NCBI GenBank assembly: GCA_019322535.1 | Contig: JAHWIM010000006.1 | Span: 1-47,863, forward strand | Direction: 5' to 3' | Length of the DNA: 47,863 nucleotides | Source of the DNA: Candidatus Woesearchaeota archaeon | GTDB taxonomy: Archaea > Nanobdellota > Nanobdellia > Woesearchaeales > WJKL01 | Part shown: one piece after another, positions 4,489-24,600 of the stretch | How positions within the stretch are numbered: the first letter of the stretch is position 1 | Layout: the number at the start of each line of letters is the position of its first letter | Translations under genes and position numbers: made by a program | Notes under the pieces: generated by a model | Told to the model about the DNA's origin: nothing | Databases searched by the model: none | Seen by the model: the letters and a program-made list of their open reading frames with translations, nothing else

Positions 4489-4663
4489 AGGATCATAATT
4501 TGCTACAAAGTTAAGCAGATATTGTTTTAGCTGGTTCTTTAAGAGATAAATTTTTATATTGTTTAAGTGTGTTGATTGTTATGACAAATAAATTCAGCAA
4601 GGTTATCAAGTATAAGGGTGTTAAGGAAGACAGCAAGAGTGGACATAAGATTTCTTATAGAAA

Positions 4664-6542: not shown

Positions 6543-7640
6543 ATGATAATTCACAAACCTAAGATTAAAAAAGAAGATGGAAGAATTTGTGTTTCGTCTT
6601 TTATTGAAGTTGAGAGTGATGAATCTCTGTCTGATACTTTATGGTTTAAATTTCCAGAAGATCATGAAAAATTTGTATCAGATAACTCAAATGGATTTGT
6701 TGTTGCTATGCTTCCTTTAGCAATGTCCTTAGGAGAAGATATTAAAGTAAAAGGGAGAATGTCTTCTAAATTAGCATATGGATTAAAGCAATACCAGGGC
6801 TATTTTAATTTTTGGTTTCCAGATAATCTTAAAATAGTAAATATTATCTGTGATGATTTTGAAAGTGAAAATAAAATTGATGTTAAAGGTGTTGTGTGTT
6901 CTTTTTCAGGAGGTGTTGATTCATTTTATACTTTATATTCTCATTTGCCTGAGAATGAAAAGGATATAAGACATCAAATTTCTCATTGCTTATTTGTTCA
7001 TGGTTTTGATATTCCTTTAAATGATAAAAAATCTTATGATCTGGCTAAAAATAGTTATGAAAAATTAGCCAACAAGCTTAAGATAAAACTCATTTCAACA
7101 AGCACTAACATTAGAGATCTCTTAGACAAAAAAATCTCCTGGGAGATAACTCATGGGGCTGCATTAGCAAGCGTAGCTTTAACTTTGAGCAATTTAATCT
7201 CTCGTTTTTATATAGCTTCAAGCCGATCAATTATCGCTTGGGGGTCAAACCCAATTACTGATTCATTATTATCTACAGAAAAATTAGAATTCTTGAATTA
7301 CAGATCCTATGAGACAAGAATTAATAAAACTAGAATGATTGCACATTACCCTGAAACATATGATAATTTAAGGGTTTGCTGGGAGAGACCAGACGGTTTA
7401 AAGAATTGTTGTAGATGTGAAAAATGTATAAGAACAATGGTAACATTAGAATTAATGGGTGTTCTTTCTAAATATAAAACATTCCCAAAACCACTCACCA
7501 GAGAAAAAGTAAAGAACTGGCCGCTTAAAAAAGAAAACGAAATAAGATTCGCAAAAGAAATACAAGAATATGCCCTCAGAAAAGGAAGAAAAGATCTCGA
7601 GAAAGATATTTTGATTGCAATAAAAAACTATAAATGCTAA
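6543..7640 (+). CDS. PP-loop (adenine nucleotide alpha-hydrolase) superfamily protein, subfamily unknown
   Basis: 365 aa with an SGGxDS PP-loop (CSFSGGVDSFY) near residue 120 and a C-terminal Cys cluster (VCWERPDGLKNCCRCEKCIRT). Confidence 0.5.
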   Translation: MIIHKPKIKKEDGRICVSSFIEVESDESLSDTLWFKFPEDHEKFVSDNSNGFVVAMLPLAMSLGEDIKVKGRMSSKLAYGLKQYQGYFNFWFPDNLKIVNIICDDFESENKIDVKGVVCSFSGGVDSFYTLYSHLPENEKDIRHQISHCLFVHGFDIPLNDKKSYDLAKNSYEKLANKLKIKLISTSTNIRDLLDKKISWEITHGAALASVALTLSNLISRFYIASSRSIIAWGSNPITDSLLSTEKLEFLNYRSYETRINKTRMIAHYPETYDNLRVCWERPDGLKNCCRCEKCIRTMVTLELMGVLSKYKTFPKPLTREKVKNWPLKKENEIRFAKEIQEYALRKGRKDLEKDILIAIKNYKC

Positions 7641-7683
7641 AGAAGATATATGGATATTCATTGTCTCACTTGTCAAATGTTAA

Positions 7684-11304: not shown

Positions 11305-11790
11305 TTATCTCTTTTGTGCTTTTTGCATCTTTTTTTCATAAAATCTAGCTAAGTCATCTAGGTTTCTGCAGTCTTCAGGCAGCATGTCTCCTATTTCTCT
11401 TTGTGCAGCTTCTCTATCAATAGAAACACCAGGAGGTAGTTGATACAATCTGTCTTTTCCCATGTTATCTCTAGTATATTGCATCAAACGCCTTGTAACT
11501 TCTTTAAGAGGAGCTGTTCCATAACTATAACTCATATCTACTTCTAGCCAAGCATCTAAACGCTGGGCTGTCAAGGATTTATTAAAATTAGTTGCTGTAA
11601 CTACAAAAACCTGCTCTAGATTTGGTAAAGGCTCAGATTTTTCTGTTAATTCTCCTTCAGCATCTTTTTCATAAACAGAAATCTGTGGTTTCATTCCAAA
11701 TAATTTAATTGCAACTTTAGGAAGAACTTTAGCCCAACCACTTTCTTTTACTTTAAGTTCGTCTCTCTTCTGAATTATTTTATAAGCCAT
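11305..11790 (-). CDS. Hypothetical protein
   Basis: 161-aa ORF with AGGTGG 3-8 nt upstream of the ATG and a TATATA about 35 nt upstream. No family recognised. Confidence 0.5.
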   Translation of the reverse strand: MAYKIIQKRDELKVKESGWAKVLPKVAIKLFGMKPQISVYEKDAEGELTEKSEPLPNLEQVFVVTATNFNKSLTAQRLDAWLEVDMSYSYGTAPLKEVTRRLMQYTRDNMGKDRLYQLPPGVSIDREAAQREIGDMLPEDCRNLDDLARFYEKKMQKAQKR

Positions 11791-11938: not shown

Positions 11939-14167
11939 TTATTTCCTATTTCTATAATAGGAAACTATTATCAGAATACTTATCAATGCTACTCCTGCTA
12001 AAGATACTAATAATATATAATTCACTTTCTTTTCTTCAGGTGTTATAACTTGAACCATCTCTTGTTTTTCTTCTGCAACTTCTGGTTGTACTTCTTCTGC
12101 TGGAACTTCTGCTGGTGCTTCTAGTATTGCAGGAGTTATTGCTTCTGATAATGATTGGAATGTAATATCTGCGCTTTTTCCTCCATTTATTTTATTTAAT
12201 GTGGCTGCTAAATCATATATACTATCTTTATCTACATCTATTTTAGTTGTTTGATTTAAATCAACTCTAACCTTTTCTACTGTTGAAGCTACACTCAATA
12301 TCACATAACTGTCTCCAAAACTGTAAATTTGTGCTGTGTGTTGTGCACCATCTACTAAAAAAGTAATTTTATCTCCTGCATAAAGAATCACTTTGAAAGG
12401 TTCTTGCCCTATAGTGTATCTTTTTCCTGTAAATCCTAATGTTGGTGCTCTTCCTCCACCACTTCTGCTAGGTGGTTGGTATGGTGCAGAAGTTGTGAAG
12501 GTATATCCTCCATCTGTCTGGCAGTTTCCTGCTTGGTCACAGCTTGTGACATTATAATAATATAGTGTTGATGCTGATAAGCTGCTTAAGCTAATGCTGT
12601 GGCTTGTTGTATAAGCAGCATTTGAACTTGTAGAACCAAGAGATGTGTTTTTTCCATAATCAACTCTTGAATTAGCATTTTCATCTGTTGTCCAAGTTAT
12701 TGTTGCTCCTGAAGATGTAATTGAGCCTGCTGCTGTGGCACTTATTGTAGGAGCAGTTGTATCATAATTGATTGTTCTAGTCGCAGACAATCCAACATTG
12801 CCTGAGCCATCAGTGCAGTTTATATACCAATCAAAACTGCCGTCAGTAAGTGTAAGCGCTTGCGAATTCAAGACACCATTGTTTGCTGATGCTGCACCTG
12901 TGCTTATATCAGAAGCATTTGACGTGTTTATAGCATACCATGCGCAAGTATTAAGATTTACATCACTTGGAGTATATGTAACTGTATTGTTATTGGTATA
13001 TTCGTTATCTGTTGGACTTGATGGTGTTACAGTTGGAGCTGCCTCATCAACTTTCAAAGTCCATATCTGGCTTTGTACTGTGCTGTCAAAATCTGTGCAG
13101 TTGATATACCAAACATAAGAACCGTCAGCCAAAGCAGTGCTTGCAGTGATTGTTGTTGCTGTTCCATTAGCTGATGTAGTATTTGTTCCACGACTAGTAT
13201 CATTAATGAATAACTCACAGGAAAGTGTTGTATTTATTTGACTTGTTGGAGTGAATACAAAATCAGGCTGGTCACTTGTTGCCCATGTATCATTACCTGG
13301 TGATGTAAGTGAAACTTGAGGACTACAGTCAGCTGGAGACTCACTATCCCATCCATCAAGCAATTTGTAAGGATAACTATCAATAACATTTACTGCATTA
13401 GAATCGGTTCCTGCAATAAAAACAGGACAAGAAGTTCTTCCCCAATAGTTTCCTTCGTTGCTGTAAGAAAGGTTTATCGCTGCATCTGAATAAACTTCAT
13501 TTGTATTACTATCATAAATATTATTGTGGTAGATTGTATTTACATTAGAACTAGCAGTCATATAAATCCCATAGGTATTGTTATATAGGTTATTTTCTCT
13601 TAAAAGATTGTTATTAGAACCTCCACCAAGGTGTATTCCATAAAGATAGTTATATATGGTGTTATTAATCAGACTGTTATTATTTGCGCCGTTGTTCAAA
13701 TAGATTCCTCTAACTGTACTGAGTACATCATTATATATGTAATTGTTTGTGAAATTGTTCCCTGAATGGATTGTCGCTGCACCTATATAGTTATTGATGA
13801 AGTTGTTATTATCCAGTGTATTATTATCTCCATCAACTAATACAGCCCATCCAGCAAAATCAGATATATTGCAATTTTTTACAGTCACATTATTTGCAGA
13901 TGATATACCTACACCCCAATCAAAACCTGAATCATCCCCACTTATTATATTATTATCACAATCAAACACTAAATCATCTGTACTTATAGTCAAACCATTT
14001 CCAGAACATCCTGTTAAATTATCAGAAGCATTTAAAGTTCTTGATTCATTTAAAGTATCTCCGCAATTACAAACATTTGTTCCGCCGCAGTTTGCAGCAC
14101 TTGCCCACACAGCAAATATTGACATTATTGCGACTATTAATAGAATTAAAACAAATTGTTTTTTCAT
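11939..14167 (-). CDS. Secreted, C-terminally membrane-anchored surface protein with right-handed beta-helix (PbH1/NosD-like) repeats and Ig/Fn3-like modules
   Basis: 742 aa. It has an N-terminal signal peptide (LILLIVAIMSIFAVWASA), Asn-rich about 22-aa repeats (NNNFINNYIG, NNSLINNTIYN, NNLLRENNLYNNTYGIYM) and S/T-rich modules with the repeated WYINCTD motif. The C-terminal TM helix ends in the basic tail YYRNRK. Confidence 0.7.
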   Translation of the reverse strand: MKKQFVLILLIVAIMSIFAVWASAANCGGTNVCNCGDTLNESRTLNASDNLTGCSGNGLTISTDDLVFDCDNNIISGDDSGFDWGVGISSANNVTVKNCNISDFAGWAVLVDGDNNTLDNNNFINNYIGAATIHSGNNFTNNYIYNDVLSTVRGIYLNNGANNNSLINNTIYNYLYGIHLGGGSNNNLLRENNLYNNTYGIYMTASSNVNTIYHNNIYDSNTNEVYSDAAINLSYSNEGNYWGRTSCPVFIAGTDSNAVNVIDSYPYKLLDGWDSESPADCSPQVSLTSPGNDTWATSDQPDFVFTPTSQINTTLSCELFINDTSRGTNTTSANGTATTITASTALADGSYVWYINCTDFDSTVQSQIWTLKVDEAAPTVTPSSPTDNEYTNNNTVTYTPSDVNLNTCAWYAINTSNASDISTGAASANNGVLNSQALTLTDGSFDWYINCTDGSGNVGLSATRTINYDTTAPTISATAAGSITSSGATITWTTDENANSRVDYGKNTSLGSTSSNAAYTTSHSISLSSLSASTLYYYNVTSCDQAGNCQTDGGYTFTTSAPYQPPSRSGGGRAPTLGFTGKRYTIGQEPFKVILYAGDKITFLVDGAQHTAQIYSFGDSYVILSVASTVEKVRVDLNQTTKIDVDKDSIYDLAATLNKINGGKSADITFQSLSEAITPAILEAPAEVPAEEVQPEVAEEKQEMVQVITPEEKKVNYILLVSLAGVALISILIIVSYYRNRK

Positions 14168-14261: not shown

Positions 14262-14600
14262 TTAAACCATTTTCAATTTTCCAGTAATAGAATCAATTTT
14301 TTCTTCAGAATCAGGTCCAATGCCAACAGTTGTTTTTGTGCCAGGAGCAATTACTGTTTTTCCTGCATCTGTAATCAAAGCAGTTTTCAAATCAGCATCT
14401 TTTGCCATTTGTAAATACTTTAACAATTCTTTTTCATTCTCCACTTTTAGAACAACTTTTTTTTGACCTTCTGATCTCCATTCAGAAACTTTTTTCTTAT
14501 CAGAATTAAATGCAGCTTCAACAGAAGCATGAGCTACTTGTGCTGCCATTTTTCCTTTTGGTAATTTCAAATCAGCTCTTACTAATATTACTTGTTTCAT
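14262..14600 (-). CDS. pth2: Peptidyl-tRNA hydrolase, archaeal type (Pth2)
   Basis: 112 aa with GKMAAQVAHASV and DAGKTVIAPGTKTTVGIGP, ending LKMV; canonical PTH2 signatures. Confidence 0.9.
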   Translation of the reverse strand: MKQVILVRADLKLPKGKMAAQVAHASVEAAFNSDKKKVSEWRSEGQKKVVLKVENEKELLKYLQMAKDADLKTALITDAGKTVIAPGTKTTVGIGPDSEEKIDSITGKLKMV

Positions 14601-14635: not shown

Positions 14636-15247
14636 CTAAGCTGCTTGCTTATGTTGTTTTTGATAGTTAGGTGCTTCTTTTTCTACTACACCATTTATTG
14701 TGTTAGCAACTGTTTCTTTATGCATTTGGTTTTGCCTTAATTTATGAGGCAGTTCAACTTGAACTCCTTTATTTTCAAACTTATTAACTACATTATACTG
14801 GCTTTTTCCCTGCAGATGTTTTGGAATATGCTTTAAATCTGTTTCAACATGGTAAAATTTGCCTATATCTTCTCTTAATTGACCAGCAACTTTATTAGCT
14901 AAATCTTTGTTTCCCCCTGTAACGTAGATTGTTCTTGTTCTATCATATGATTTACCTTGTTTAGCATATGTTCCTTGCCTAGCATGTCCATGAATAGAAA
15001 TAGCTGTTTTGGCATAATCTCTAACTCCTGACAAATGTTTTGAATGTGTTGGGGTTACTCTTGTAGAAGCAACTCTTTTTTTTAGATTATGCGCAATATA
15101 CTTTGATGCTTCTTTGACTTTTCTTGCTATTTCTCCTGTTCCTTCTTCTGTTCCAGAATGATATGCAAGAACAGCAATTGGGCTTTTTCTAGCACTTTGC
15201 TCTTTTGTTCCAGGATGATTAACAAAATCCTTGTATTTATAGCTCAT
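14636..15247 (-). CDS. Poly-gamma-glutamate hydrolase-like protein (PghP/DUF867 family)
   Basis: 203 aa. LAYHSGTEEGTGEIA corresponds to the family's HGGxIExGT motif. AISIHGH, IYVTGGNKDLANKVAGQL and NVVNKFENKGVQVELPHKLR correspond to the N..N...GVQLE motif. Confidence 0.6.
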   Translation of the reverse strand: MSYKYKDFVNHPGTKEQSARKSPIAVLAYHSGTEEGTGEIARKVKEASKYIAHNLKKRVASTRVTPTHSKHLSGVRDYAKTAISIHGHARQGTYAKQGKSYDRTRTIYVTGGNKDLANKVAGQLREDIGKFYHVETDLKHIPKHLQGKSQYNVVNKFENKGVQVELPHKLRQNQMHKETVANTINGVVEKEAPNYQKQHKQAA

Positions 15248-15280
15248 GATATAATTTTATTTAGAACAAGTATAAAAAGT

Positions 15281-16156
15281 TTATCTAGCTGCTTTATCTA
15301 TTGCTTGAACAACCTGCTCTGTTGCTAATTTAATTCTTTTTTCTAAGTGTTTTGGTGTTTTAACTGTTCTGCCTTCTTTCCATAAATGCATTGGTCTTTT
15401 TGGCGAGACAAAAACCATGCTTCCAACATATTTACCGTTAACAGCCATGCTTCTTATTTCAAAGAATTCGTTTTTGAACAAAGGAGAACAATCTATTAAT
15501 TGCTCTAAAATCATTGATCTTTTTATTTGTAGATTTTTTGGTAATTTATTTATGTAAACTGTTTTGGTTTTTTGTCCTGTTCTTGGCTTGAAAACAAAAC
15601 CTTTTGGAAAATATTTCAACTTTTTCTTAAGTTGTGTTTTGTTTTCAATAACAAAATATTTTGGAACATGTATTTTAGTATATTTTTTAACTGCTTTTTT
15701 TGCTTTTACTTTATCTCTTGTTATCCTCAAAACAGATGAAGGATTTATTACCCTGATTCCTGCTGCTTCTTGTGCTCTAGTTACACCAGCTGCTACTCTT
15801 AGAACAACATCTGGCATTATTTTTTTGCCATCTTTATCAATCAAATGGCCGTCTCCTTCAGAAAGAAGATTTTTATTCCTTTTATAACTGCATCTGTAGA
15901 TTTTTCCTTTGAATAATTTTCTAAAATGGCCAGAAATAATAGATTCTTCCCATTTTCTCTTTGATATTACTGCAAGTTTTTTGTATTTGTTTTTATTCAA
16001 GAAACTGCAAAGTTCTTTTACTGGCTTGACATGCTTGTAAATTTTCAAATATTCTTTTAATGCACCAGGAGAAGAATTTGCTTCAATAAAATAAAGTTTG
16101 TTATCTTTTCCTAGAATAAAGTCAAGTCCAGCAAATAAGTAATTTTTAACTATCAT
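15281..16156 (-). CDS. ATP-grasp ligase (RimK/YheCD/TTL-like), apparently circularly permuted
   Basis: 291 aa. The C-terminal ATP-grasp signature is at the N-terminus (LFAGLDFILGKDNKLYFIEANSSPGA), followed by the N-terminal and central domains (PDVVLRV, GIRVINP, RDKVKAKK, FVFKPRTGQ, FEIRSMAVNGK). The start overlaps the upstream stop (ATGA). Confidence 0.6.
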   Translation of the reverse strand: MIVKNYLFAGLDFILGKDNKLYFIEANSSPGALKEYLKIYKHVKPVKELCSFLNKNKYKKLAVISKRKWEESIISGHFRKLFKGKIYRCSYKRNKNLLSEGDGHLIDKDGKKIMPDVVLRVAAGVTRAQEAAGIRVINPSSVLRITRDKVKAKKAVKKYTKIHVPKYFVIENKTQLKKKLKYFPKGFVFKPRTGQKTKTVYINKLPKNLQIKRSMILEQLIDCSPLFKNEFFEIRSMAVNGKYVGSMVFVSPKRPMHLWKEGRTVKTPKHLEKRIKLATEQVVQAIDKAAR

Positions 16157-17151
16157 GCTGTTTTAACAATTTTTAGTTTAATGCCTGATTTAATTGCTTC
16201 AAGAACATGATCATAGTAACTTATTCTTCTGTATCTGCCGTATGCATATCTATGCATTGTTGGACTGCCGTTGCATTCTATTACATAAGGCCTTTGATTT
16301 TTGTCAAATACAAAATCTACTGAGAACAGTCTTGGAGAATATCTTCCTAAAATTCTGTCTATTCTCTTAACTACAGCAACTGCTTTTAGAGGGATTTTTG
16401 ATTTTGGAACAAAAATCTTGTTTCCACCTAAAGCCATGTTTGCTGTTAATAATCCTTTTTTTGGAGTCCTGACATGGCAGTGGTCTATTTCTCCATTAAT
16501 AACAATAACCCTCATATCATGCAAACCTTTAACCAGTCCTTTTATTCCTTCAGAGCCATCTATAAATTCTTGCACAACTGTATTTTTATTGATTTTTTTT
16601 GGAAGCTTGTCTTTTGTAGTTACAGTAACATGCTCTCCTAGTGTACCATATCTTGGTTTTAAAACAATTTTTTCAGATTTAATTTCAGGAAGAACAATTT
16701 TTAATCCTCTAACTGTATTAACTAAGAATGTTTTAGGAGCAATAGTTGGGAAAAGCTCTGAAACCATGCATTTGTCCCAGCAGAATTCTTCAAGTTCTGG
16801 ACTGTTGAACAATCCAACTTGCTCTTCCATTTTGTATTTTAAGTTTTCTATTCTTTTGTTCTTAGTAAAGCCATCATATATTGCTTTGTTAAATCTGCTG
16901 TAGATAATATCTAATTTAACATTGTCTATTTTTTTCCATTTTTTATCAAAAACCCATGCATGTTTTAGAATTCCATTTTGATATAATTTATAATTAGCAC
17001 AACATAGAACAAGACCTTTTTTCTTAGCTTTTCTAGCAAGGATTGCATAAGATCTGTTCATTGCAAATGTTCTGAATGGTTTTTTAGTATTAGAATTAGC
17101 GAAATGAGTAAATAAAACTCCTATTTTTCCGTTTTGATAGTTTTCTATCAT
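16153..17151 (-). CDS. ATP-grasp ligase, YheC/YheD-like
   Basis: 332 aa with KIGVLF..., LDIIYSRF, WDKCMVSELF, IVLKPRYGTLGEHV, VVQEFID, HDMRVIVINGE, TANMALGG and LFSVDFVFDKNQRPYVIECNGSPTM, in normal ATP-grasp order. Confidence 0.7.
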   Translation of the reverse strand: MIENYQNGKIGVLFTHFANSNTKKPFRTFAMNRSYAILARKAKKKGLVLCCANYKLYQNGILKHAWVFDKKWKKIDNVKLDIIYSRFNKAIYDGFTKNKRIENLKYKMEEQVGLFNSPELEEFCWDKCMVSELFPTIAPKTFLVNTVRGLKIVLPEIKSEKIVLKPRYGTLGEHVTVTTKDKLPKKINKNTVVQEFIDGSEGIKGLVKGLHDMRVIVINGEIDHCHVRTPKKGLLTANMALGGNKIFVPKSKIPLKAVAVVKRIDRILGRYSPRLFSVDFVFDKNQRPYVIECNGSPTMHRYAYGRYRRISYYDHVLEAIKSGIKLKIVKTA

Positions 17152-17249: not shown

Positions 17250-17603
17250 TCAAATAATTTTATACTTAGTCAATAATAAAACAACAAAACCCAAAAGAAC
17301 CAGAACTCCGAGAAGGATCGTTACTATTATTGAAATCAACCTCTCATCTTTGTCCATATCTTTCCATCTTCTTTTGTTCTTCTTCCAGTCTTTTTTATTG
17401 ACTAAACCAGCTATCATAAAAACAAAACCCATTGACCAAAGAACATGGTTCTTAAGAGGAATCCCTATTACAACCCACATCATCCCTATTATAAACAAAT
17501 TATAATAATCAGGAGGAGTCTTATGTTTCTTTCTTATTAATATTGCAACAACTGCAAACAAGAGAAGAAGTACAGCAATTGATATTAAAATCCAAGGTAT
17601 CAT
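17250..17603 (-). CDS. Small membrane protein (3 TM helices)
   Basis: 117 aa with three clear hydrophobic helices separated by basic loops. The + strand ORF 17206..17505 is its shadow. Confidence 0.5.
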   Translation of the reverse strand: MIPWILISIAVLLLLFAVVAILIRKKHKTPPDYYNLFIIGMMWVVIGIPLKNHVLWSMGFVFMIAGLVNKKDWKKNKRRWKDMDKDERLISIIVTILLGVLVLLGFVVLLLTKYKII

Positions 17604-17635: not shown

Positions 17636-18250
17636 TTACTTTATAGCAACTGCTTCAATGAAAGAAGATTTATAATCGCGATGGACAGAAGCAGTTTTTT
17701 TAATACTAAGAATTTTAAATTTATTTAGCTTTTCTCTCATATATTCTTTGTCAAAAAAGTGTCTCAAATGTCTATAGTATATAAATAAATTATCTCCTAC
17801 TTTTTCACCTTTGCCATATACTCTATCATCAGTTGATTTGCATTTGACAAAAAATAATCCTTTTTTCTTTAGTATTTTATACAAATCGTTGAAGATTTTT
17901 GTTGTAGTTTTATCGTCAAAGTAATGCAGGCTTAGGTGAGCATATATCACATCAAAAGAATTGTTTGGAAAATTTAATTTTCTCAAATCTTGGCAAACTG
18001 TTTTGATATTTTTGATATTTTTTCTATCAATTTCTTTTTGAATGCTTTCTAATCCGCTGCGTGAGATATCTAATGCAGTCACAATTAAACTATTTTGTGC
18101 AAAGAAGATAGAATCTCTGCTCCTGCCACTTCCTAAATCTAATATTGTTTTAAGTTTCTTCTTTTTGATTAATTTTAAACTTCTTCTTGCAAAATTACTA
18201 GGTTGTTTCTTTACTGGTCCTCTTGGTCTTGATTTCCAAAATTCTGTCAT
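17636..18250 (-). CDS. Class I SAM-dependent methyltransferase
   Basis: 204 aa with motif I ILDLGSGRSRDS, an acidic post-I ALDIS and FDVIYAHLSLHYF. Confidence 0.75.
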   Translation of the reverse strand: MTEFWKSRPRGPVKKQPSNFARRSLKLIKKKKLKTILDLGSGRSRDSIFFAQNSLIVTALDISRSGLESIQKEIDRKNIKNIKTVCQDLRKLNFPNNSFDVIYAHLSLHYFDDKTTTKIFNDLYKILKKKGLFFVKCKSTDDRVYGKGEKVGDNLFIYYRHLRHFFDKEYMREKLNKFKILSIKKTASVHRDYKSSFIEAVAIK

Positions 18251-18336: not shown

Positions 18337-19911
18337 ATGGCAAAGAAAGAAACTAAAGCAATGCACTGGGCTGATCAGGCAGCAGAACAGATTATCAAGA
18401 AAAAAGATAAAAAAGAATATGTTGTAGCTACTGGTGTAACTCCTTCTGGAACTTTGCACATTGGTAATTTTAGAGAATTGATTACAGGAGATATTATTAA
18501 AAGAGCATTAATTGATGCAGGCAAAAAAGCAGTTCATTATCATTACTGGGATGATTATGATGTTTTTAGAAAAGTTCCTGCAAATATGCCAAAACCAGAG
18601 ATTCTAAAAAAGTATCTAAGACAGGCTCTGATTTATGTTCCTGATGTTATTGATAATAAACATAAAAATTATGCATATCATAATGAAAAAGAAATTGAAG
18701 AACTACTTCCTATTGTAGATGTCAAACCAACAATATTAAGGCATGCTGAAAGATACATGAATTGTGAATATGCAAAAGAAATGAAAATTGCATTAGAGAA
18801 CACTGATAAAATTAAAGAAATTTTTAACAAATATAGAAAAGAAGAATTAGAAGAAAGCTGGCTTCCAATTTCTGTTTATTGTGAAAAATGCCATTTAGAA
18901 GCTGAAAAAATAAAGTATGAAGGAATGTGTGATGTTTCTTATGAATGCAGCTGCGGAGACAATCAAACATTTGATATTAGTAAAAAAGGATTGGCAAAAT
19001 TAAAATGGAGGGTTCAATGGCCTGCATGGTGGAATAATAAAGATGTTGATTTTGAATCAGCAGGAAAAGATCATTTTGCTGCTGGCAGCGGCATTGATAC
19101 AGGAAGAGAAGTGCAGAGAAAGATTTACAAAACAGAGCCGCCAATTGGTTTTGGTTTTGGATGGATCGGTGTAAAAGGAGGAAAACAATTTTCAAGCTCT
19201 GCTGGTGTTATTTTTACATTAAAAGATGTTTTAGACGTTTATGAGCCAGCAATTGTTAGATATATATTTGCCAGCTCAAGACCTTCATATGAATTTGCAA
19301 TTTCGTTTGACTTAGATGTTTTAAAAGTGTATGAGGATTTTGATAAATGTGAAAGGATTTATCATATGCAGGAAGAAGTAGATGAAAAAGAATTTGAAAA
19401 ACAGAAAAGGATTTATGAATTATCATATATTGGTAAACCTCCTAAAGATATTCCTTTTCAACCAGTATTTAGGCATTTAACAAACGTGCTGCAGACATTT
19501 GAAAAGGATTTAAATAAAACAACTGAATTTTTTAAGAATGAATTAAAAACTTCTGATGATAAGAAAAGATTTGAAACAAGATTGAAATGTGTTTTGAACT
19601 GGCTTGAGCATTATGCTCCTGATGATTTTAAGTTTACTGTGCAAAAACAAGTTCATTCTGGTATTGAATTAAGTGATGAACAAAAACAGGCCTTGCATAA
19701 AGTTGCTGAATTATTGAAAAAAGATTTTAAAAATGATACAGAACTGCATGAAGCAATGTATAAGATAAGCCAGGATGTTGGCTTAAACGCAAAAGATTTC
19801 TTTAAAGGAGCTTATCTTGTTCTTGTTAACAAAGAAAAAGGCCCAAGATTAGCTAGTTTTATCCTAACAATAGGTAAGGATAAAGTTAGTAAATTATTTG
19901 CAAATGTTTAG
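18337..19911 (+). CDS. lysK: Lysyl-tRNA synthetase, class I
   Basis: 524 aa with HWADQ, PSGTLHIGNFRE (HIGH) and a KMSKS-like GGKQFSSSAG. The length and order are typical of archaeal class I LysRS. Confidence 0.9.
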   Translation: MAKKETKAMHWADQAAEQIIKKKDKKEYVVATGVTPSGTLHIGNFRELITGDIIKRALIDAGKKAVHYHYWDDYDVFRKVPANMPKPEILKKYLRQALIYVPDVIDNKHKNYAYHNEKEIEELLPIVDVKPTILRHAERYMNCEYAKEMKIALENTDKIKEIFNKYRKEELEESWLPISVYCEKCHLEAEKIKYEGMCDVSYECSCGDNQTFDISKKGLAKLKWRVQWPAWWNNKDVDFESAGKDHFAAGSGIDTGREVQRKIYKTEPPIGFGFGWIGVKGGKQFSSSAGVIFTLKDVLDVYEPAIVRYIFASSRPSYEFAISFDLDVLKVYEDFDKCERIYHMQEEVDEKEFEKQKRIYELSYIGKPPKDIPFQPVFRHLTNVLQTFEKDLNKTTEFFKNELKTSDDKKRFETRLKCVLNWLEHYAPDDFKFTVQKQVHSGIELSDEQKQALHKVAELLKKDFKNDTELHEAMYKISQDVGLNAKDFFKGAYLVLVNKEKGPRLASFILTIGKDKVSKLFANV

Positions 19912-20059: not shown

Positions 20060-20407
20060 ATGGTAAAGGGAAAGATAGTTGTAGGGTTAACTGAAAACGT
20101 AACAATTATAGGACCTAAAGGAAAGAGAAAAAGAATTACATCTAGAATAGACACTGGTGCAACTAAAAGCAGTGTTGATGCTAAACTAGCTGCTGAATTA
20201 TCATTAGGACCAATCATAAAAACAAAGCTAATCAAGTCTGCTTCAGGAAACAAGATGAGGCCTGTATTAAAAGCAGAGATTAAGATTGCTAAAAAAGATC
20301 TAAAAGAGGAATTTACTGTTGCTGACAGAAGCCATTTAAGATACAAAGTTTTGGTTGGACAAAACATACTCAAAAAAGGATTCCTTATAGACCCGAGTAA
20401 AAAATGA
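20060..20407 (+). CDS. Retropepsin-like aspartic protease, RimK-associated (the family historically named putative ATP-dependent zinc protease)
   Basis: 115 aa with RIDTGATKSSVD (DTGA active site) and DRSHLRYKVLVGQNIL. It overlaps rimK by ATGA. Confidence 0.75.
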   Translation: MVKGKIVVGLTENVTIIGPKGKRKRITSRIDTGATKSSVDAKLAAELSLGPIIKTKLIKSASGNKMRPVLKAEIKIAKKDLKEEFTVADRSHLRYKVLVGQNILKKGFLIDPSKK

Positions 20408-21492
20408 CAATAAAAGCTGCTGTTATAAGTTTAGGAAGTACGAGCTCAAAATGGACAATCAGAGCTCTAAAAAAGTACATCAGAATAGTTGATGATATAA
20501 ATATTAAAGATGTTGAAGTTAATTTGAGTTCTCAAAAACTAGAAGTATTGTATAAAGGAAAACCATTGGAGGATTATGATTGTGTTTTTGCAAAAGGAAG
20601 TTTTAGATATGCTACTTTATTAAGGGCTATTAGTTTGATTGCATCCCAAAAATCTTATGTTCCTGTTAAACCTTCTGCTTTTACTGTTGCTCATGATAAA
20701 TTACTAACACAATTTAGACTGCAACAGCACGGAATTCCTATGCCTGTTACATACTTATCAGCAACTCCAGAAGCAGCTAAGAAAATTCTTGAAAGAGTGC
20801 ATTATCCAATAATCATGAAATTTCCTAAAGGAACTCAAGGAAAAGGGGTTATGTTTGCAGACAGTTTTGCTTCTGCAAATAGCATGTTAGATGCTTTAAC
20901 TGCCTTAAAGCAGCCTTTTTTGATTCAAGAATATGTTGAAACAGGCGGCACTGACATAAGAGCAATAGTTGTTGGAGATAAAGTTGTCGCTGCTATGAGA
21001 AGATCAGCTGAAATAGGTGAGAAAAGGGCAAATATTCATGCAGGCGGCAAAGGAGAAGCAATAAGTCTTGATGTGAAAACTAGAAGACTTGCTGTTATGG
21101 CTGCTGAAGCAATTGGTGCAGATATCTGCGCTGTTGATATTTTAGAAAGTGCTAAAGGTCCTGTTGTTATAGAAGTTAATATTTCTCCTGGTTTGCAAGG
21201 CATTACAGCAACAACAAAGATAGATGTTGCTGACAAGATTGCCAGGTTCTTGTATAAAAAGACAAAAGAGATTGCTGAATCAAAGAAAAAATTAACTACA
21301 ACAGAAATAATGAAAGAGGTTACTCCTGGCAAAGATATTTTAACTCATTTGGACTTAAGAGGAGAACGAATTCTCTTGCCTGATTATGTGACAAAAGAAA
21401 CTAAGTTTTCTGAAAAAGATGAAGTTTTACTCAAAGTTAAAGAAGGCAAGCTTGTTATTGAAAAATTTGAAGTTGGCAAAGAAAAGAAGTGA
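20404..21492 (+). CDS. rimK: RimK-type ATP-grasp alpha-L-glutamate ligase with a C-terminal extension
   Basis: 362 aa with DKLLTQFRL, IIMKFPKGTQGKGV, LIQEYVE, DIRAIVVGDKV, ANIHAGG and AVDILESAKGPVVIEVNISPGLQGI. The last roughly 65 aa (ILLPDYVTKETKFSEKDEVLLKVKEGKLVIEK) look AbrB/SpoVT-like. Confidence 0.85.
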   Translation: MTIKAAVISLGSTSSKWTIRALKKYIRIVDDINIKDVEVNLSSQKLEVLYKGKPLEDYDCVFAKGSFRYATLLRAISLIASQKSYVPVKPSAFTVAHDKLLTQFRLQQHGIPMPVTYLSATPEAAKKILERVHYPIIMKFPKGTQGKGVMFADSFASANSMLDALTALKQPFLIQEYVETGGTDIRAIVVGDKVVAAMRRSAEIGEKRANIHAGGKGEAISLDVKTRRLAVMAAEAIGADICAVDILESAKGPVVIEVNISPGLQGITATTKIDVADKIARFLYKKTKEIAESKKKLTTTEIMKEVTPGKDILTHLDLRGERILLPDYVTKETKFSEKDEVLLKVKEGKLVIEKFEVGKEKK

Positions 21493-21633: not shown

Positions 21634-24600
21634 ATGGCAGATGATAAAAGATTAGAAGAGATAGCAGATTCTAATAATCCAATACCTAAAAGAATTCTTA
21701 TTGCAGATGATGACAACAGTATGTTGAGACTTATGGTAGATATTTTCCAGGATGAAGATTATATAATACAGACAGCAAAGAAAGGTGAAGGGGTTTTGAA
21801 GGCGCTTGAAGAAGAAGAGTTTGATTTTGTTGTAACTGACCTTATAATGCCTGACAAGAGCGGAGAACAGTTAATAAGGGCTATAAAAAAAACAGGAAGT
21901 CCGCGGCCTGTGGTTGTTGTATCTGGACATGGAACTATTCAAGAAATTGAAAGAATAAAAAGAATTGGTGTTTATGATTTTCTTCCTAAACCATTTAACG
22001 TGGAAAATTTAAGGGAAATTGTAAGAAGAGGTGTTACAGAGATTGATGAGATTGCTTCAAGGTTAGCATGGTATAGTAATTTAGATAAGCCAGAAGGATA
22101 TACACCAGAATTAAATGAAGAATTAGAATACAGAAGAAACGCCAGAGGCATAGTTGCAAAAGGCGAGAAAGTTTTATTGGTTGCAAATACTGAACAAGAA
22201 AGAGATAATTTAGACAATCTGCTTTTAGATCTAGGGTATTGTGTTGATAGAACACTTGACTGTGGAAAAGCTTTGACTATGATCGAACAAACTCAGTTTG
22301 ATGTTGTTCTGACAGACATGACTTTAAGCGGAGGACATGGTATATCAGTCGTTGACCGGGCTGGAACTACCAGCAGGGCTAGAAAAAAGAGAACTAAAGT
22401 AGTTGTGTTGAGTGAGTATTCTGACAGAGAAAACCAGTTAAAAACATTAAAATCTGTTCTTTTGGGTGCAAGTGATGTTATTACAAAACCCAGGGATATT
22501 GCTGACTTAGATCAAAGAGTAATCAAATCTTCTGTCTGGAGAGCATTAAGATTGGCTAAAGGCTCTAAATCATTAAGAAAGAATAAGGTGCTTGTTGTTG
22601 GTTCAGATTATGAAGATTTAGTTAAAAGTTTAGAAAAACAAAAATATAAAGTTGATGTGGTTTCTGGCGAAGAAGATGTTGATGAAGTAAAAAAGTTGGA
22701 CGGCTATCATGTGGTTCTTTTGAATGAGAGATTTGGTTTAGATATGTTAGGTAAAATAAAACAAACTGATCCAAAAATAAAAGCATTAGTGCTTGCGTCA
22801 AAGCATTTAACTCCTGAAGAAGCTGTTTCGTCTATGGTTTATGGTATTGATGATGTAGTCTATCAATCTGATGTAGAAACTATGGCTGCTGCTGTTGAAA
22901 ATAGCGTTATGACAAGCCCTCTACAAAAAAAAGCATATGACTCTATAAATGCATTTGTAAAAAAACATTTAGAACTTGCAGAAAACCCATTAGAGCGTTT
23001 TGCTGAATTGTGCAGTACTGGAAGCTTAGAAGATAGGGCACTAGCTTGTTGCGCTAGAAGTTTACTTCATTTTAGGCTTGGTGACTTAGAGAGTATTAGA
23101 GAGGCTATCAATTGTCTACATAATGCTAAAAAATTAAATCCTGAATCAAACATGCCTTTTGTTTTATATACAAATTTTGTATCCAAATTACCTGCTGAGA
23201 CAGTAAGTATGTTGACAAAGAATTTAGACGATTCTTTAAGACAGCTTGAAATTAAGCCTTATTATTTCATGCGGATGAGGGATTCTCTGTTAGATGAACA
23301 AAAAAGACGTGCTGAAGAAGAAGGCTATGTTACACCAACTCAGCCTACAAGAAGCAAGATAATGAAATTTCATTCACATGATTATTGGTTCTATATGAAG
23401 TCTGCACCACTTGAATCTATGATATCATATAGGAATAACATAAATTTTTTCCAAAGGATTAATAGAAGGTATGAGGATTGGCGTTCACTTTTTGGATTTG
23501 TTTCAAGCAAAAACTATAAAACCCCTGTAGCAGGATTCAAAGCAGTTATAACAGATGCTAAAGAACCTTTTATTCTTGAAGCAGAGGATGGAAATGCTCC
23601 TGTAGAACCAGAGGTTTTTAATCAGCTTGAACAAAGCAAAAAAGATAGAGCAAGATTAAGTGCTTTGCTTTCTGCGTGTGTCCGCCATGCAGCATATACC
23701 TGCGCTAATGGGCCTATAGCTCTTGCAAAAAATCATGTTGATAACCTAGAAGAATTTTGGGAAGAGAGACTAGGAACAAGAGTTGTAGAGCCGATAAAGG
23801 CTTTATTGAAAAGAAAAGAAATTTCATTAGATGAGAAATTAAAAGAAGAGGGCAGAAGCCTGGATCAAGAACTTGAAGAAATAGAAAAGGCCTTTCATGA
23901 ATCAACCCATAGATTAAGAAAAGCACTTGCAGCTCAAGAGCCAAAAGGTTATTATTCTGATTGGTGGACTTCAAATGCAGCTGTAAATAGTGCTGGTGAT
24001 GTTTATAAATATGGCTTTCTCAGAACAAGATCAGGTCTGCCTATTGTAGTTGATCTTGCAACTGTATTCCATTTTAGAGATTTTTTATCTTTCTTATCTG
24101 AAAATGAAGAAGAAAAAGTAGAAAGAGAAAAAGGTTATGTTAAACAATTCTTTAATGATTATTCTGAAGCTGTTAGTAGAGGAATTAACAAAATAGTGCA
24201 AGAATATGAAGCAAGCCCTAAGAAATTTATTATTCAAGAATTTGAAAAAGACGCAAGCGAAATTAGAAAAACTGTTTTAGAATCTGAACAAACCCAAGAA
24301 AAAGAACCAGGAGAAGAAGAGATTTTTTTCAAAGGCGAACATCTAGTTGGCCTAAGATATGTTAGTTATTATCCTTCTGTAGATAAAATAGATGCTCTTA
24401 AAAAATATTTTGTGACAGAGGTAGCTGATAAATTACCTGTTGGCGAATATTTTACTGCACTGAAAGAATACGCCAAAGACAAAGGAGATGATGTCGTGGA
24501 GTATGTTTGTGAGGTTGAAAGGTTTGCAACAAATCTAAAACCAAAAAAACCTCTCAAGGTAACAGATGAAATATTAAGTCATAAATTAATACCTGCTTAT

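What the first reader, a model, noticed from the sequence alone, without database searches (positions are those of the whole stretch)
14636..17151. Two tandem ATP-grasp ligases plus a PghP-like gamma-glutamyl hydrolase: candidate peptide-tag or polymer write/erase module
Three co-directional, tightly packed minus-strand genes form the module. The first is a YheC/YheD-like ATP-grasp (16153..17151). The second is another ATP-grasp coupled to it by an ATGA overlap (15281..16156). The third, 33 nt further on, is a DUF867/PghP-like protein (14636..15247; HSGTEEGTGEIA, SIHGH, GVQVELP). Pth2 follows after 35 nt. RimK/YheCD/TTL-type ATP-grasp enzymes ligate amino acids (typically Glu) onto carboxylates, and PghP-type enzymes cleave gamma-glutamyl peptide bonds. 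A ligase pair with a matching hydrolase in a reduced archaeal genome looks like a dedicated system that builds and trims an oligo-amino-acid tag or polymer. I know of no described archaeal system with this composition, and the substrate is unknown. Neighbouring translation genes (pth2, lysK) and a small membrane protein offer competing hypotheses: a translation-factor or ribosomal target versus an envelope polymer.
Basis: partly seen in the sequence, partly recalled or inferred. Interest (0 to 1): 0.7.

Follow-up and report, generated by a model that had tools for sequence, protein, structure and literature searches.

The report
Archaeal two-ligase plus hydrolase cassette
A small archaeon (Woesearchaeota type) carries a conserved, uncharacterised gene cassette: two ATP-dependent amino-acid ligases, one with its sequence order circularly rearranged, plus a zinc hydrolase of the poly-gamma-glutamate-cleaving family; they probably add and remove a glutamate-containing tag or peptide whose target is unknown.

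Summary
Three co-directional minus-strand genes sit at the stated coordinates, with the stated ATGA overlap and the 33-nt and 35-nt spacers. G1 (16153..17151) is a canonical ATP-grasp ligase of the GshB/LysX/RimK type. G3 (14636..15247) belongs to PF05908 (PghP/PghL) and keeps the zinc ligands and the catalytic-Glu motif.

Its Mg-binding D..E.N hairpin is at the N-terminus. About 70 clusters at 50% identity share this layout, and no Pfam permuted-ATP-grasp model matches the family.

The functional link is well supported. G2 and G3 are adjacent in 3 further loci. In one of these (L019) they are a single 499-aa fusion protein. A distant locus (L024) carries a rearranged version with a permuted G2-type ligase, two G1-type ligases, an FGase-family hydrolase and a PF05908 hydrolase.

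G3 is nevertheless an accessory, because most G1-G2 loci lack it. The more widely conserved unit is G1-(G2)-(G3)-Pth2, with a lysyl-tRNA synthetase of either class within about 4 kb. A separate RimB-like/RimK pair lies 3 kb away.

The chemistry and the target are untested. I classify this as a new variant of a known kind (amidoligase plus hydrolase modules).

The parts
16153..17151 (-). G1: canonical ATP-grasp amidoligase, 332 aa (pre-ATP-grasp, central and C-terminal domains). Catalytic set present: K165 (KPRYG), Q194/E195, D212/R214, N238, G242/G243, D279/E292/N294.
   Evidence: Pfam RimK 3.2e-10, ATP-grasp_3 and GSH-S_ATP. TIGR00768 is the best NCBIfam hit but scores far below its cut-off. 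AF2 pLDDT 91.6. Foldseek top hits are 1gsa GshB, 5k2m/3vpb LysX/ArgX and 4iwx/5zct RimK. Conserved residues come from the 35-sequence alignment A3 and the alignment to RimK 7qys.
15281..16156 (-). G2: circularly permuted ATP-grasp amidoligase, 291 aa. Its start overlaps the G1 stop (ATGA). Invariant residues: D12/E25/N27 (Mg triad), K190 (KP motif), E233/R235.
   Evidence: G1 139-266 aligns to G2 165-288, and G1 275-316 aligns to G2 7-43. Reciprocal HMM hits are in permuted order. In the PDB profile search, G2 122-217 matches 1ulz 88-181 and G2 9-28 matches 1ulz 271-290. The layout is identical in 24 of 24 aligned homologues and in about 70 clusters at 50% identity. AF2 pLDDT 90.9, pTM 0.89.
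16022..16156 (-). Codons 1-45 of G2. This is the beta-hairpin carrying the Mg/ATP-site D..E.N motif (LFAGLDFILGKDNKLYFIEANSSPG), which is C-terminal in every canonical ATP-grasp.
   Evidence: Matches positions 146-171/188 of Pfam RimK, 207-229/255 of YheCD, and the C-terminus of Ddl models. In the AF2 model it forms strands E8-16 and E21-27.
14636..15247 (-). G3: PF05908 (PghP/PghL-type) zinc amidohydrolase, 203 aa, with no signal peptide. Inferred Zn ligands H30, E34 and H86; inferred catalytic E165 (GVQVELP).
   Evidence: Pfam 1.6e-13, PHROG 4175 and PDB 5onl YndL. The residues are invariant in the family and in a Staphylococcus phage PghP-like protein. Residue roles are taken from PMC6506827. 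G3 is fused to a G2-type ligase in P0089.
14262..14600 (-). Pth2 peptidyl-tRNA hydrolase, the last gene of the co-directional block. It is the most persistent neighbour of G1.
   Evidence: PF01981 2.2e-39; NF003314 scores 151 bits against a cut-off of 126. It follows the ligase cassette in the window, L011, L013, L012, L006, L019, L022 and L023.
18337..19911 (+). Class I lysyl-tRNA synthetase (LysK). This is neighbourhood only; whether it belongs to the system is unproven.
   Evidence: TIGR00467 scores 544 bits. A LysRS lies within about 4 kb of G1 in six loci: class I in the window and L023, class II in L006, L015, L012 and L022.
20060..21492 (+). Second, separate ligase/peptidase pair: a RimB-like retropepsin (20060..20407) overlapping a RimK-family alpha-L-glutamate ligase (20404..21492). 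This is neighbourhood only.
   Evidence: PF05618 2.8e-14 and NF052261 RimB 1.2e-9. PF08443 1.1e-48, and TIGR00768 scores 202 bits against a cut-off of 143. The same pair lies next to G1-G2-Pth2-LysS in L006.

Best explanation
G1, G2 and G3 form one functional cassette that makes and unmakes an amide (isopeptide) bond involving glutamate on an intracellular acceptor.

Proposed mechanism. G1 is a canonical ATP-grasp ligase and G2 is circularly permuted. Both keep a full catalytic set, and G2 is translationally coupled to G1. Each would activate a carboxylate as an acyl-phosphate and attach an amino acid. I propose they act in succession on the same acceptor. One would start the chain and the other extend it, as TTLL initiases and elongases do. 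Alternatively they would catalyse two consecutive steps, as GshA and GshB do. The product would be a short oligo-glutamate-type chain that is at least partly gamma-linked. G3, a cytoplasmic zinc amidohydrolase of the PghP/PghL family, would hydrolyse that linkage to trim, reset or recycle the product. The most likely acceptor is a protein or peptide of the translation apparatus, or another polyanion-associated component.

Shown:
- the folds
- the intact active-site motifs
- the permutation in G2
- gene coupling, and conservation of the module by adjacency, by fusion and by a rearranged cluster

Inferred:
- Glu as the residue added
- the division of labour between G1 and G2
- G3 acting on the product of G1 and G2
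- the nature of the acceptor
For: 1. Both ligases look catalytically competent. G1 keeps K165, Q194/E195, D212/R214, and D279/E292/N294. G2 keeps D12/E25/N27, K190, E233/R235, all invariant across the family.
2. G1 and G2 are adjacent in 9 loci, with overlapping or abutting reading frames.
3. G2 and G3 are adjacent in the window, L011 and L017, and are fused into one 499-aa protein in L019/P0089.
4. L024 is a distant lineage (G1 39-40%, G2 26%, G3 27% identity). It carries a rearranged cluster: permuted G2-type ligase, two G1-type ligases, an FGase (PF05013), and a PF05908 hydrolase on the opposite strand.
5. Characterised members of both hydrolase families act on glutamate amides: gamma-PGA for PF05908 (PMC6506827, PMC4497714), and N-formyl-Glu for the FGase family (family name and my own knowledge). 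The nearest relatives of G1 (GshB, LysX/ArgX, RimK, MptN, CofF) all make Glu-containing amides.
6. G3 keeps the Zn ligands and the catalytic-Glu motif and has no signal peptide.
7. G1, G2 and G3 are unusually basic (pI 9.9-10.2; net charge +33, +44 and +18). LysK in the same window has pI 7.9. This fits an acidic substrate.
8. Pth2, LysRS and (in two loci) RimB/RimK are persistent neighbours.
Against: - No substrate, product or activity has been observed, so everything chemical is inference.
- G3 is absent from most G1-G2 loci (L006, L012, L013, L008). G2 occurs alone in five loci and G1 occurs without G2 in two. The three genes are therefore not an obligate unit.
- G3 differs from PghP/PghL at positions where mutation kills gamma-PGA hydrolysis. 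By MAFFT, His77 becomes Arg58 and Thr79 becomes Ala60. The HMMER alignment gives a different register. The scissile bond may therefore not be gamma-Glu-Glu.
- The closest structural matches of G2 are small-molecule ligases (GspS, YgiC, trypanothione synthetase), and the top match of G1 is GshB. This favours a small-molecule product as much as a protein tag.
- In a small genome dominated by translation genes, neighbours such as Pth2 and LysRS carry limited weight. Most of the loci come from one related clade, so shared ancestry inflates the synteny counts.
- The P0089 fusion rests on one contig and could be a lost stop codon or a sequencing error.
Confidence: 0.5

Rival explanations
1. Small-molecule pathway. 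G1 and G2 carry out two consecutive ligations that assemble a defined low-molecular-weight gamma-glutamyl-type peptide or conjugate, such as a thiol, polyamine conjugate or osmolyte. This would be analogous to GshA/GshB or to glutathionylspermidine and trypanothione synthesis. G3 would be the matching amidase that turns the product over, as the amidase domain of GspS does.
For: - The top Foldseek hits of G2 are 3k1t ('putative gamma-glutamylcysteine synthetase'), YgiC/YjfC, GspS and trypanothione synthetase. The top hit of G1 is E. coli GshB.
- GspS is itself a ligase-plus-amidase fusion, which resembles P0089 (GspS architecture from the PDB titles).
- L024 has three different ligases in a row plus an FGase-family small-molecule amidohydrolase.
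- M29 aminopeptidases sit directly upstream of G1 in L019 and L023.
Against: - Foldseek favours the permuted families partly because it aligns sequentially and they share the permuted order. By sequence, G2 is unrelated to YgiC (hhalign probability 2.9%) and matches no GSP_synth model.
- These archaea are thought to have little biosynthetic metabolism (my knowledge).
- PghP-type enzymes are known as polymer endo-hydrolases.
- The neighbours are translation genes, not metabolic ones.
Confidence: 0.3
2. Envelope or extracellular polymer. The ligases build a peptide polymer or cell-wall peptide, such as a poly-gamma-glutamate-like or pseudomurein-like stem, and G3 remodels it.
For: - PF05908 enzymes degrade capsular gamma-PGA.
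- Pfam describes the YheCD and ATPgrasp_ST families as surface or spore-coat associated (my recollection).
- G1 has a very weak hit to the archaeal pseudomurein Ddl-like model (E 0.0019).
- A small membrane protein and a 742-aa surface protein flank the block in the window.
Against: - G1, G2 and G3 have no signal peptide or membrane segment.
- The membrane protein is missing in the closest relative, L015.
- The surface protein looks like an insertion relative to L011 and L012.
- No PgsB/C, Mur-ligase or export genes lie next to any of the loci.
- Known gamma-PGA synthesis uses PgsBCA, not ATP-grasp enzymes (my knowledge).
Confidence: 0.08
3. No common function. G3 is a virus-derived PghP-like gene that landed between G2 and Pth2 in one clade, and G1 and G2 are unrelated paralogous ligases that happen to be neighbours.
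For: - PF05908 is a phage-associated family.
- G3 is present in only a subset of G1-G2 loci.
- More distant G3 homologues are found with NYN/Lit genes and no ligase.
Against: - The G2::G3 fusion in L019.
- An independent, rearranged co-occurrence of all three families in L024 at 26-40% identity.
- Base composition across the block is uniform.
- G3 is only 29% identical to its best phage hit.
- The ATGA overlap points to co-translation of G1 and G2.
Confidence: 0.07

Closest known systems
RimK / RimB (RimABK) poly-alpha-glutamate modification of ribosomal protein S6 in bacteria
   Same: An ATP-grasp ligase of the same broad clade is paired in an operon with a peptidase that removes what the ligase adds, and the system is linked to translation. 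A genuine RimB-like/RimK pair lies 3 kb away in this window (PMC7343187, PMC11957791).
   Different: - G1 and G2 score far below the RimK-family cut-off (43 and 37 bits against 143), and the G1 and G2 profiles do not detect the window's own RimK.
- There are two ligases, one of them permuted.
- The hydrolase is a zinc, carboxypeptidase-like PF05908 enzyme, not a retropepsin.
- Archaea lack bS6 (my knowledge).
Glutathionylspermidine synthetase/amidase (GspS) and its relatives YgiC/YjfC and trypanothione synthetase
   Same: The ATP-grasp ligase is permuted, with the Mg triad ahead of the central domain. In YgiC the triad is D102/E115/N117 and the KP motif is at 302. These are the top Foldseek matches of G2. 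A ligase and its antagonist hydrolase share one polypeptide, as in the G2::G3 fusion P0089.
   Different: - There is no detectable sequence relationship (hhalign probability 2.9%).
- None of 24 family members matches GSP_synth.
- The permutation breakpoint appears to differ by one helix.
- The GspS hydrolase is a CHAP cysteine amidase (my knowledge), not a PF05908 zinc enzyme.
Eukaryotic TTLL polyglutamylases plus CCP deglutamylases
   Same: Several ATP-grasp ligases divide the work of starting a gamma-linked branch and extending it, and zinc hydrolases with a carboxypeptidase-A-like fold remove the glutamates. PghL shares that fold (PMC6506827).
   Different: The resemblance is only an analogy. 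The TTL Pfam model matches just the short E.N motif. PF05908 is not the M14 CCP family. No tubulin-like target has been identified.
PghP / PghL poly-gamma-glutamate hydrolases of Bacillus phages and prophages
   Same: Same Pfam family, with the Zn ligands (His, Glu, His) and the catalytic-Glu motif conserved.
   Different: - Only about 29% identity to the best phage hit.
- Substitutions at positions equivalent to PghL His77 and Thr79.
- G3 is cytoplasmic and embedded in, or fused to, a ligase operon, with no gamma-PGA synthase (PgsBCA) context.
Pfam CP_ATPgrasp_1/2 (circularly permuted ATP-grasp, Iyer et al. 2009) and B. subtilis YheC/YheD tandem ATP-grasps
   Same: Circularly permuted ATP-grasp families have already been described. 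YheC and YheD are two tandem ATP-grasp genes of unknown substrate, and all 24 G2-family members hit the YheCD model.
   Different: No G2-family member matches CP_ATPgrasp_1/2 even at E<=10. The YheCD hits fall in permuted order and for G1 and G2 are below the cut-off. The association with a PF05908 hydrolase was not found in the searchable literature.

Membership tests
ATP-grasp superfamily (G1) | Three-domain ATP-grasp fold with a P-loop-like Lys, hinge Q/E, catalytic Arg and C-terminal D/E..E.N Mg triad, in canonical order | tested here: met
   Pfam RimK, ATP-grasp_3 and GSH-S_ATP all score above their cut-offs. AF2 plus Foldseek give GshB, LysX and RimK at E 1e-14 to 1e-12. The motifs are conserved in A3.
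RimK family alpha-L-glutamate ligase (TIGR00768) - G1 and G2 | Score at or above the curated family cut-off (143.4 bits) | tested here: not met
   G1 scores 43.0 bits and G2 scores 36.8 bits. The neighbouring gene 20404..21492 scores 202 bits and is the real RimK-family member.
YheC/YheD ATP-grasp (PF14398) - G1 | Pfam gathering score of 26.8 bits | tested here: not met
   G1 scores 22.9 bits and G2 scores 16.8 bits. The G1 orthologue in L008 reaches 45.5 bits, so the family is borderline YheCD-like.
ATP-grasp superfamily, circularly permuted topology (G2) | The Mg-triad hairpin precedes the pre-ATP-grasp and central domains in the sequence, yet the protein folds as one closed ATP-grasp | tested here: met
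   Permuted-order alignments to G1, to Pfam and NCBIfam models, and to PDB 1ulz. A confident single-domain-assembly model (pLDDT 90.9, pTM 0.89). The layout is conserved in all homologues.
Pfam CP_ATPgrasp_1/2, GSP_synth (known permuted ATP-grasp families) - G2 | Sequence match to the family model | tested here: not met
   None of the 24 family members appears under these models at E<=10. hhalign against E. coli YgiC gives probability 2.9%. Only some 380-400-aa distant relatives give sub-threshold GSP_synth hits (7e-5, 22.5 bits against a cut-off of 29.3).
Pfam CP_ATPgrasp / GspS-type permutation - G2 | Same permutation breakpoint (shared origin of the permutation) | tested here: inconclusive
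   G2 keeps the helix that precedes the triad at its C-terminus (residues 269-290, matching G1 255-268). In YgiC that segment is N-terminal (G1 profile positions 246-296 match YgiC 72-120). The alignments are weak (i-E about 1e-3). No structure superposition was possible.
Poly-gamma-glutamate hydrolase family PF05908 (PghP/PghL) - G3 | Pfam gathering score, plus the Zn ligands His-Glu-His and the catalytic Glu | tested here: met
   G3 scores 51 bits against a cut-off of 22, covering profile positions 20-173 of 191. H30, E34 and H86 align to PghL His41, Glu46 and His102. E165 in GVQVELP aligns to GVQLEL of a phage homologue and is invariant. I infer that it corresponds to PghL Glu165.
Poly-gamma-glutamate hydrolase family PF05908 (PghP/PghL) - G3 | Substrate-site residues shown to be needed for gamma-PGA hydrolysis (PghP His78 and Thr80, equivalent to PghL His77 and Thr79) | tested here: not met
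   MAFFT places Arg58 and Ala60 at these positions, while Ser61 and Thr62 are conserved. HMMER gives another register, Arg63/Thr65. In both registers the His is replaced by Arg.
Poly-gamma-glutamate hydrolase family PF05908 (PghP/PghL) - G3 | Hydrolysis of gamma-glutamyl bonds | not testable with these tools
   This needs an enzyme assay.
Graspetide / microviridin-type RiPP clusters (two ATP-grasp macrocyclases) | A precursor peptide gene next to MdnB/MdnC-type ligases | tested here: not met
   No conserved small ORF accompanies G1-G2 across the loci. G1 and G2 do not hit the MvdC/MvdD models. MdnC and PsnB appear only as mid-rank structural neighbours of G1.
Anti-phage defence systems (PADLOC) | Match to a defence-system protein model | tested here: not met
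   G1 and G3 have no hit, and G2 has only a 0.0073 hit.

The most novel reading that the evidence does not exclude
G1-(G2)-(G3)-Pth2 would be a previously unrecognised archaeal post-translational modification system for the translation machinery. G1 and the permuted G2 would start and extend an oligo-glutamate (gamma-linked) side chain or tail on a ribosomal protein, a translation factor, or even a tRNA-linked substrate. G3 would erase the mark. The system would be functionally tied to peptidyl-tRNA hydrolase and lysyl-tRNA synthetase, which would explain why LysRS stays next to it even where class I has been swapped for class II. G2 would have arisen by an independent circular permutation of a G1-like ligase.
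Probability: 0.2. Interest if true: 0.85.

Novelty: new variant of a known kind. Interest (0 to 1): 0.6.

Why it matters
- **Function in reduced genomes.** These small archaea keep few enzymes. A conserved set of two or three amidoligases with a dedicated hydrolase, attached to Pth2 and LysRS, points to an unknown modification or metabolite that matters to their biology, possibly to translation.
- **Reversible polyglutamylation.** If the target is a protein, this would be an archaeal counterpart of reversible polyglutamylation, known from bacteria (RimK/RimB) and eukaryotes (TTLL/CCP). The cassette gives a defined set of genes to test.
- **Protein evolution.** G2 is a compact, well-populated family of circularly permuted ATP-grasp enzymes that current domain models recognise only piecemeal. 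It lies next to its closest canonical relative, which makes it a useful case for studying how permutation arises.
- **Annotation.** G2 homologues are currently labelled 'hypothetical', 'D-Ala-D-Ala ligase-like' or 'NCAIR synthetase'.

Tried and rejected
- **Iyer et al. 2009 (PMC3268129).** This is the key survey of ATP-grasp amidoligase neighbourhoods, but it is not held in the library. I could not check whether it already describes an ATP-grasp/DUF867 link. Full-text searches for ATP-grasp with DUF867, with PF05908 and with Woesearchaeota found nothing.
- **PDB search with the C-terminal half of G3.** I hoped to align the catalytic Glu directly. It returned only spurious coiled-coil hits. I used a phage homologue alignment instead.
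- **Viral structure library for G2.** Nothing significant.
- **Phage DNA and protein collection for G3.** One weak hit at 29% identity.
- **PADLOC.** No defence-system match.
- **Metagenome and genome pattern scans anchored on G2.** They gave only 4 and 5 loci. Most of the context came from exact-protein look-ups.
- **Candidate substrate genes, considered and dropped:**
  - The 117-aa membrane protein is absent in L015.
  - The treble-clef zinc-finger/RGG protein upstream of stand-alone G2 appears only in L001/L002 and L014 and has no acidic tail.
  - FtsZ genes lie a few kb away in L003 and L005 but are not adjacent.
  - The small protein after Pth2 (c9) is not conserved in L019 or L006.
- **Cofactor glutamylation (MptN/CofF-type).** Rejected, because the scores are 33-39 bits against cut-offs of 300-350.
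- **Internal promoter.** The G2-G3 spacer contains TTTTTATA about 27 nt upstream of the G3 start. I did not pursue it, because such strings are common at 30% GC.

Full report
**1. Observation**

The three minus-strand ORFs are at the stated coordinates:
- G1: 16153..17151, 332 aa
- G2: 15281..16156, 291 aa
- G3: 14636..15247, 203 aa
- Pth2: 14262..14600, 112 aa

The G1 stop and the G2 start overlap as ATGA. The G2-G3 spacer is 33 nt and the G3-Pth2 spacer is 35 nt. Base composition is uniform across the block at about 30% GC. All three genes have real homologues: 51, 28 and 7 at E<=1e-3. All of these come from Woesearchaeota/Nanoarchaeota-type MAGs and metagenomes, so the window is from a DPANN-type archaeon.

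**2. What each protein is**

*G1* is a canonical ATP-grasp amidoligase.
- It passes the Pfam cut-offs for RimK (3.2e-10), ATP-grasp_3 and GSH-S_ATP. It falls below the cut-off for YheCD.
- It scores far below every NCBIfam equivalog cut-off.
- Its AF2 model (pLDDT 91.6) matches E. coli GshB, LysX/ArgX and RimK best.
- The ATP and Mg-site residues are conserved in a 35-sequence alignment.

*G3* is a PF05908 (PghP/PghL) family protein.
- It scores 51 bits against a cut-off of 22, and also matches PHROG 4175 and PDB YndL.
- By alignment, H30, E34 and H86 correspond to the PghL zinc ligands His41, Glu46 and His102 (roles from PMC6506827).
- E165 in GVQVELP is invariant and aligns with GVQLEL of a phage homologue. 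I infer that it corresponds to the catalytic Glu165.
- The positions equivalent to PghL His77 and Thr79 are not conserved. Mutating the matching residues in PghP is deleterious to gamma-PGA hydrolysis. By MAFFT they are Arg58 and Ala60. The HMMER register differs, but the His is still replaced by Arg.
- G3 has no signal peptide. It is therefore probably an active cytoplasmic zinc amidohydrolase whose substrate need not be gamma-PGA.

*G2* is the main new point: it is a circularly permuted ATP-grasp.
- Residues 8-34 (LFAGLDFILGKDNKLYFIEANSSPG) match the C-terminal Mg-triad region of the RimK, YheCD, TTL and Ddl models. Residues ~90-250 match the N-terminal and central parts.
- BLASTP against G1 gives G1 139-266 = G2 165-288 and G1 275-316 = G2 7-43. 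Reciprocal profile searches give the same order.
- A PDB profile search aligns G2 122-217 to 1ulz 88-181 and G2 9-28 to 1ulz 271-290.
- The model is confident (pLDDT 90.9, pTM 0.89).
- All 24 full-length homologues share the layout, with D12, E25, N27, K190, E233 and R235 invariant.
- An exhaustive profile search finds about 70 clusters at 50% identity with full-length, single-stretch matches. Larger 380-407-aa relatives are also permuted.

*How G2 relates to known permuted ATP-grasps.* The best Foldseek hits of G2 are 3k1t, YgiC/YjfC, GspS and trypanothione synthetase. I confirmed the permuted order in YgiC; for the others it rests on my recollection. By sequence the picture is different:
- G2 is related to the canonical G1 family (hhalign probability 96%, E 1.5e-9).
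- It is not detectably related to YgiC (probability 2.9%).
- No member matches Pfam CP_ATPgrasp_1/2 or GSP_synth, even at E<=10.
- The breakpoints also seem to differ by one helix, though this evidence is weak.

I therefore regard G2 as a distinct permuted family. It probably arose independently from a G1/YheCD/RimK-like ancestor, but this is not proven.

**3. Is the trio a unit?**

| Arrangement | Loci |
|---|---|
| G1-G2-G3-Pth2 | window, L011 |
| G1-[G2::G3 fusion, 499 aa]-Pth2 | L019 (P0089: ligase 1-289, PF05908 314-466) |
| G2-G3 (contig cut) | L017 |
| G1-G2-Pth2, no G3 | L006, L012, L013 |
| G1-G2-RsmB/F-like methyltransferase | L008 |
| G1-G2 (contig cut) | L009, L015 |
| G1-Pth2, no G2 | L022, L023 |
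| G2 alone | L001/L002, L005/L007, L010, L014, L025 |
| G3 homologues (~50% id) with NYN, Lit and a small zinc-ribbon gene, no ligase | L003/L004, L018 |

L024 is the most informative locus. It comes from a distant lineage (G1 39-40%, G2 26%, G3 27% identity). It carries, in order: a permuted G2-type ligase, two G1-type ligases, an FGase-family (PF05013) amidohydrolase, and a PF05908 hydrolase on the opposite strand.

Three kinds of evidence therefore link the two ligase types to the PF05908 hydrolase: adjacency, a fusion, and a rearranged cluster in a distant lineage. G3 is still optional, because most G1-G2 loci lack it.

The most persistent partner of G1 is Pth2, found in eight loci whose flanks otherwise differ. 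A lysyl-tRNA synthetase lies within about 4 kb in six loci:
- Class I: window and L023.
- Class II: L006, L015, L012 and L022.

**4. Surroundings**

About 3 kb away on the other strand, directly after lysK, lies a second ligase/peptidase pair. It consists of a RimB-like retropepsin (20060..20407) overlapping a true RimK-family ligase (20404..21492; TIGR00768 scores 202 bits against a cut-off of 143). A 1089-aa double-receiver protein and a PHP-like protein follow.

The block LysRS-RimB-RimK-REC-PHP recurs in L006 right after G1-G2-Pth2, but there the LysRS is class II. RimB is a retropepsin that cuts runs of five to six or more alpha-linked Glu (PMC11957791). The window therefore encodes three ATP-grasp ligases and two different peptidases within 7 kb.

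**5. Mechanism**

*Shown:*
- There are two distinct and apparently active ATP-grasp ligases, and G2 is translationally coupled to G1.
- There is an apparently active zinc amidohydrolase.
- All three are cytoplasmic and strongly basic (pI about 10).
- Their genes are linked across lineages.

*Inferred:*
- The ligases act in succession to put a glutamate-containing (iso)peptide on an intracellular carboxylate acceptor, and G3 removes it.
- Glutamate is inferred because the nearest characterised ligases (GshB, LysX/ArgX, RimK, MptN, CofF) and both hydrolase families (PF05908, and FGase in L024) all handle glutamate amides.

*Rivals.* I cannot decide between a protein or peptide tag and a small-molecule product.
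- The tag reading is favoured by the Pth2, LysRS and RimBK neighbourhood, by the basic charge of the enzymes, and by the polymer-type hydrolase.
- The small-molecule reading is favoured by the GshB/GspS-like structural neighbours, by three different ligases in L024, by the FGase, and by M29 peptidases upstream of G1 in L019 and L023.
- An envelope polymer is unlikely: there are no signal peptides, the membrane protein is not conserved, and no export or PgsBCA genes are nearby.
- Chance adjacency is disfavoured by the fusion and by L024.

**6. Comparison and novelty**

Ligase-plus-hydrolase modules are a known kind: RimK/RimB, TTLL/CCP, and GspS synthetase/amidase. Permuted ATP-grasps are also known. 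What appears new here is:
- a distinct permuted family (G2) that existing models do not capture
- its pairing with a canonical sister ligase
- the recurrent recruitment of a PF05908 hydrolase, including a fusion
- the persistent link to Pth2 and LysRS in DPANN archaea

I found no description of this in the searchable literature. The most relevant survey, Iyer et al. 2009, could not be read.

**Verdict:** a real and conserved cassette. It is a new variant of a known kind, and its function is untested.

Noticed in passing
window 20060..21492 (+): A RimB-like retropepsin (PF05618 2.8e-14; RimB model 1.2e-9) overlaps a genuine RimK-family alpha-L-glutamate ligase (TIGR00768 scores 202 bits against a cut-off of 143) that has a C-terminal extension of about 70 aa. 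This is a bacterial-type poly-Glu write/erase pair in an archaeon, which has no ribosomal protein bS6, so its target is unknown. The same pair is present in L006 (3197..4662).
   Followed up: partly
window 18337..19911 (+); L006 1662..3122; L015 599..2056; L012 3..797; L022 9060..10514; L023 9578..11014: A lysyl-tRNA synthetase sits close to the G1 cassette in six loci, but its class differs: class I (LysK) in the window and L023, class II (LysS) in L006, L015, L012 and L022. L015 is the window's closest relative (G1 83% identical) yet has class II at the equivalent divergent position. This looks like in-place non-orthologous displacement. The window contains no class II LysRS.
   Followed up: partly
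window 21634..26110 (+) and 26107..27042 (-): A 1089-aa protein with two receiver (REC) domains, a 406-aa PHP/CehA-like protein, and a 311-aa protein follow RimK. The 311-aa protein's homologue in L006 has MazE and PhoU hits. Homologous or analogous genes follow RimK in L006 (an 808-aa REC protein, a 306-aa PHP protein and a 308-aa protein).
   Followed up: partly
window 17636..18250 (-) and 17250..17603 (-): The SAM methyltransferase upstream of G1 (NCBIfam MduS-like 7e-30; PADLOC mad2 5e-22) is also next to G1 in L015. The 117-aa membrane protein between them is not present there, so the membrane protein is probably not part of the cassette.
   Followed up: partly
window 11939..14167 (-) and 11305..11790 (-): The 742-aa beta-helix/NosD/Ig-like surface protein lies between Pth2 and a 161-aa gene. 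Homologues of that 161-aa gene follow Pth2 directly in L011 and L012, so the surface-protein gene looks like an insertion or relocation in this genome. L012 has a homologue of the surface protein 4.5 kb further on.
   Followed up: partly
window 2420..3508 and 3544..4488 (+); L019 274..1335; L023 1179..2249 and 4009..4956: The window has a pair of M29 (aminopeptidase T-like) peptidase genes about 12 kb from the cassette. In L019 and L023 their orthologues sit directly upstream of G1. In L023 a creatininase-family amidohydrolase and a DegT aminotransferase lie between the two M29 genes.
   Followed up: no
L024 7594..8235 (-): Just downstream of the PF05908 hydrolase in the distant cluster is a 213-aa protein with a hydrophobic N-terminal segment, a hydrophobic segment near the C-terminus, and an extremely Glu-rich tract (EEEQEETEEIVEEEEETEEEQEEIEEE). 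It could be a substrate or primer, or simply a coincidence.
   Followed up: no
L003 7303..9236; L004; L018: G3 homologues at about 50% identity are not next to ligases. They sit in a conserved small block with a 68-aa zinc-ribbon protein, an NYN-domain nuclease and a Lit-family protein. The MAG that carries L003 (GCA_019322435.1) has G1-Pth2 on another contig (L023).
   Followed up: partly
L008 2513..4849 (-) and 6778..7647 (+); L017 864..1817 (-): In L008 the G1-G2 pair is followed, with overlapping start and stop, by an RsmB/F-type rRNA methyltransferase in place of Pth2. It is preceded, in divergent orientation, by a 779-aa protein homologous to the protein kinase that lies next to G3 in L017.
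   Followed up: no
window 15248..15280 (-): The 33-nt G2-G3 spacer contains TTTTTATA about 27 nt upstream of the G3 start codon. The position is typical of an archaeal TATA box for a leaderless transcript, so G3 might also be expressed separately. Such strings are common at 30% GC.
   Followed up: no
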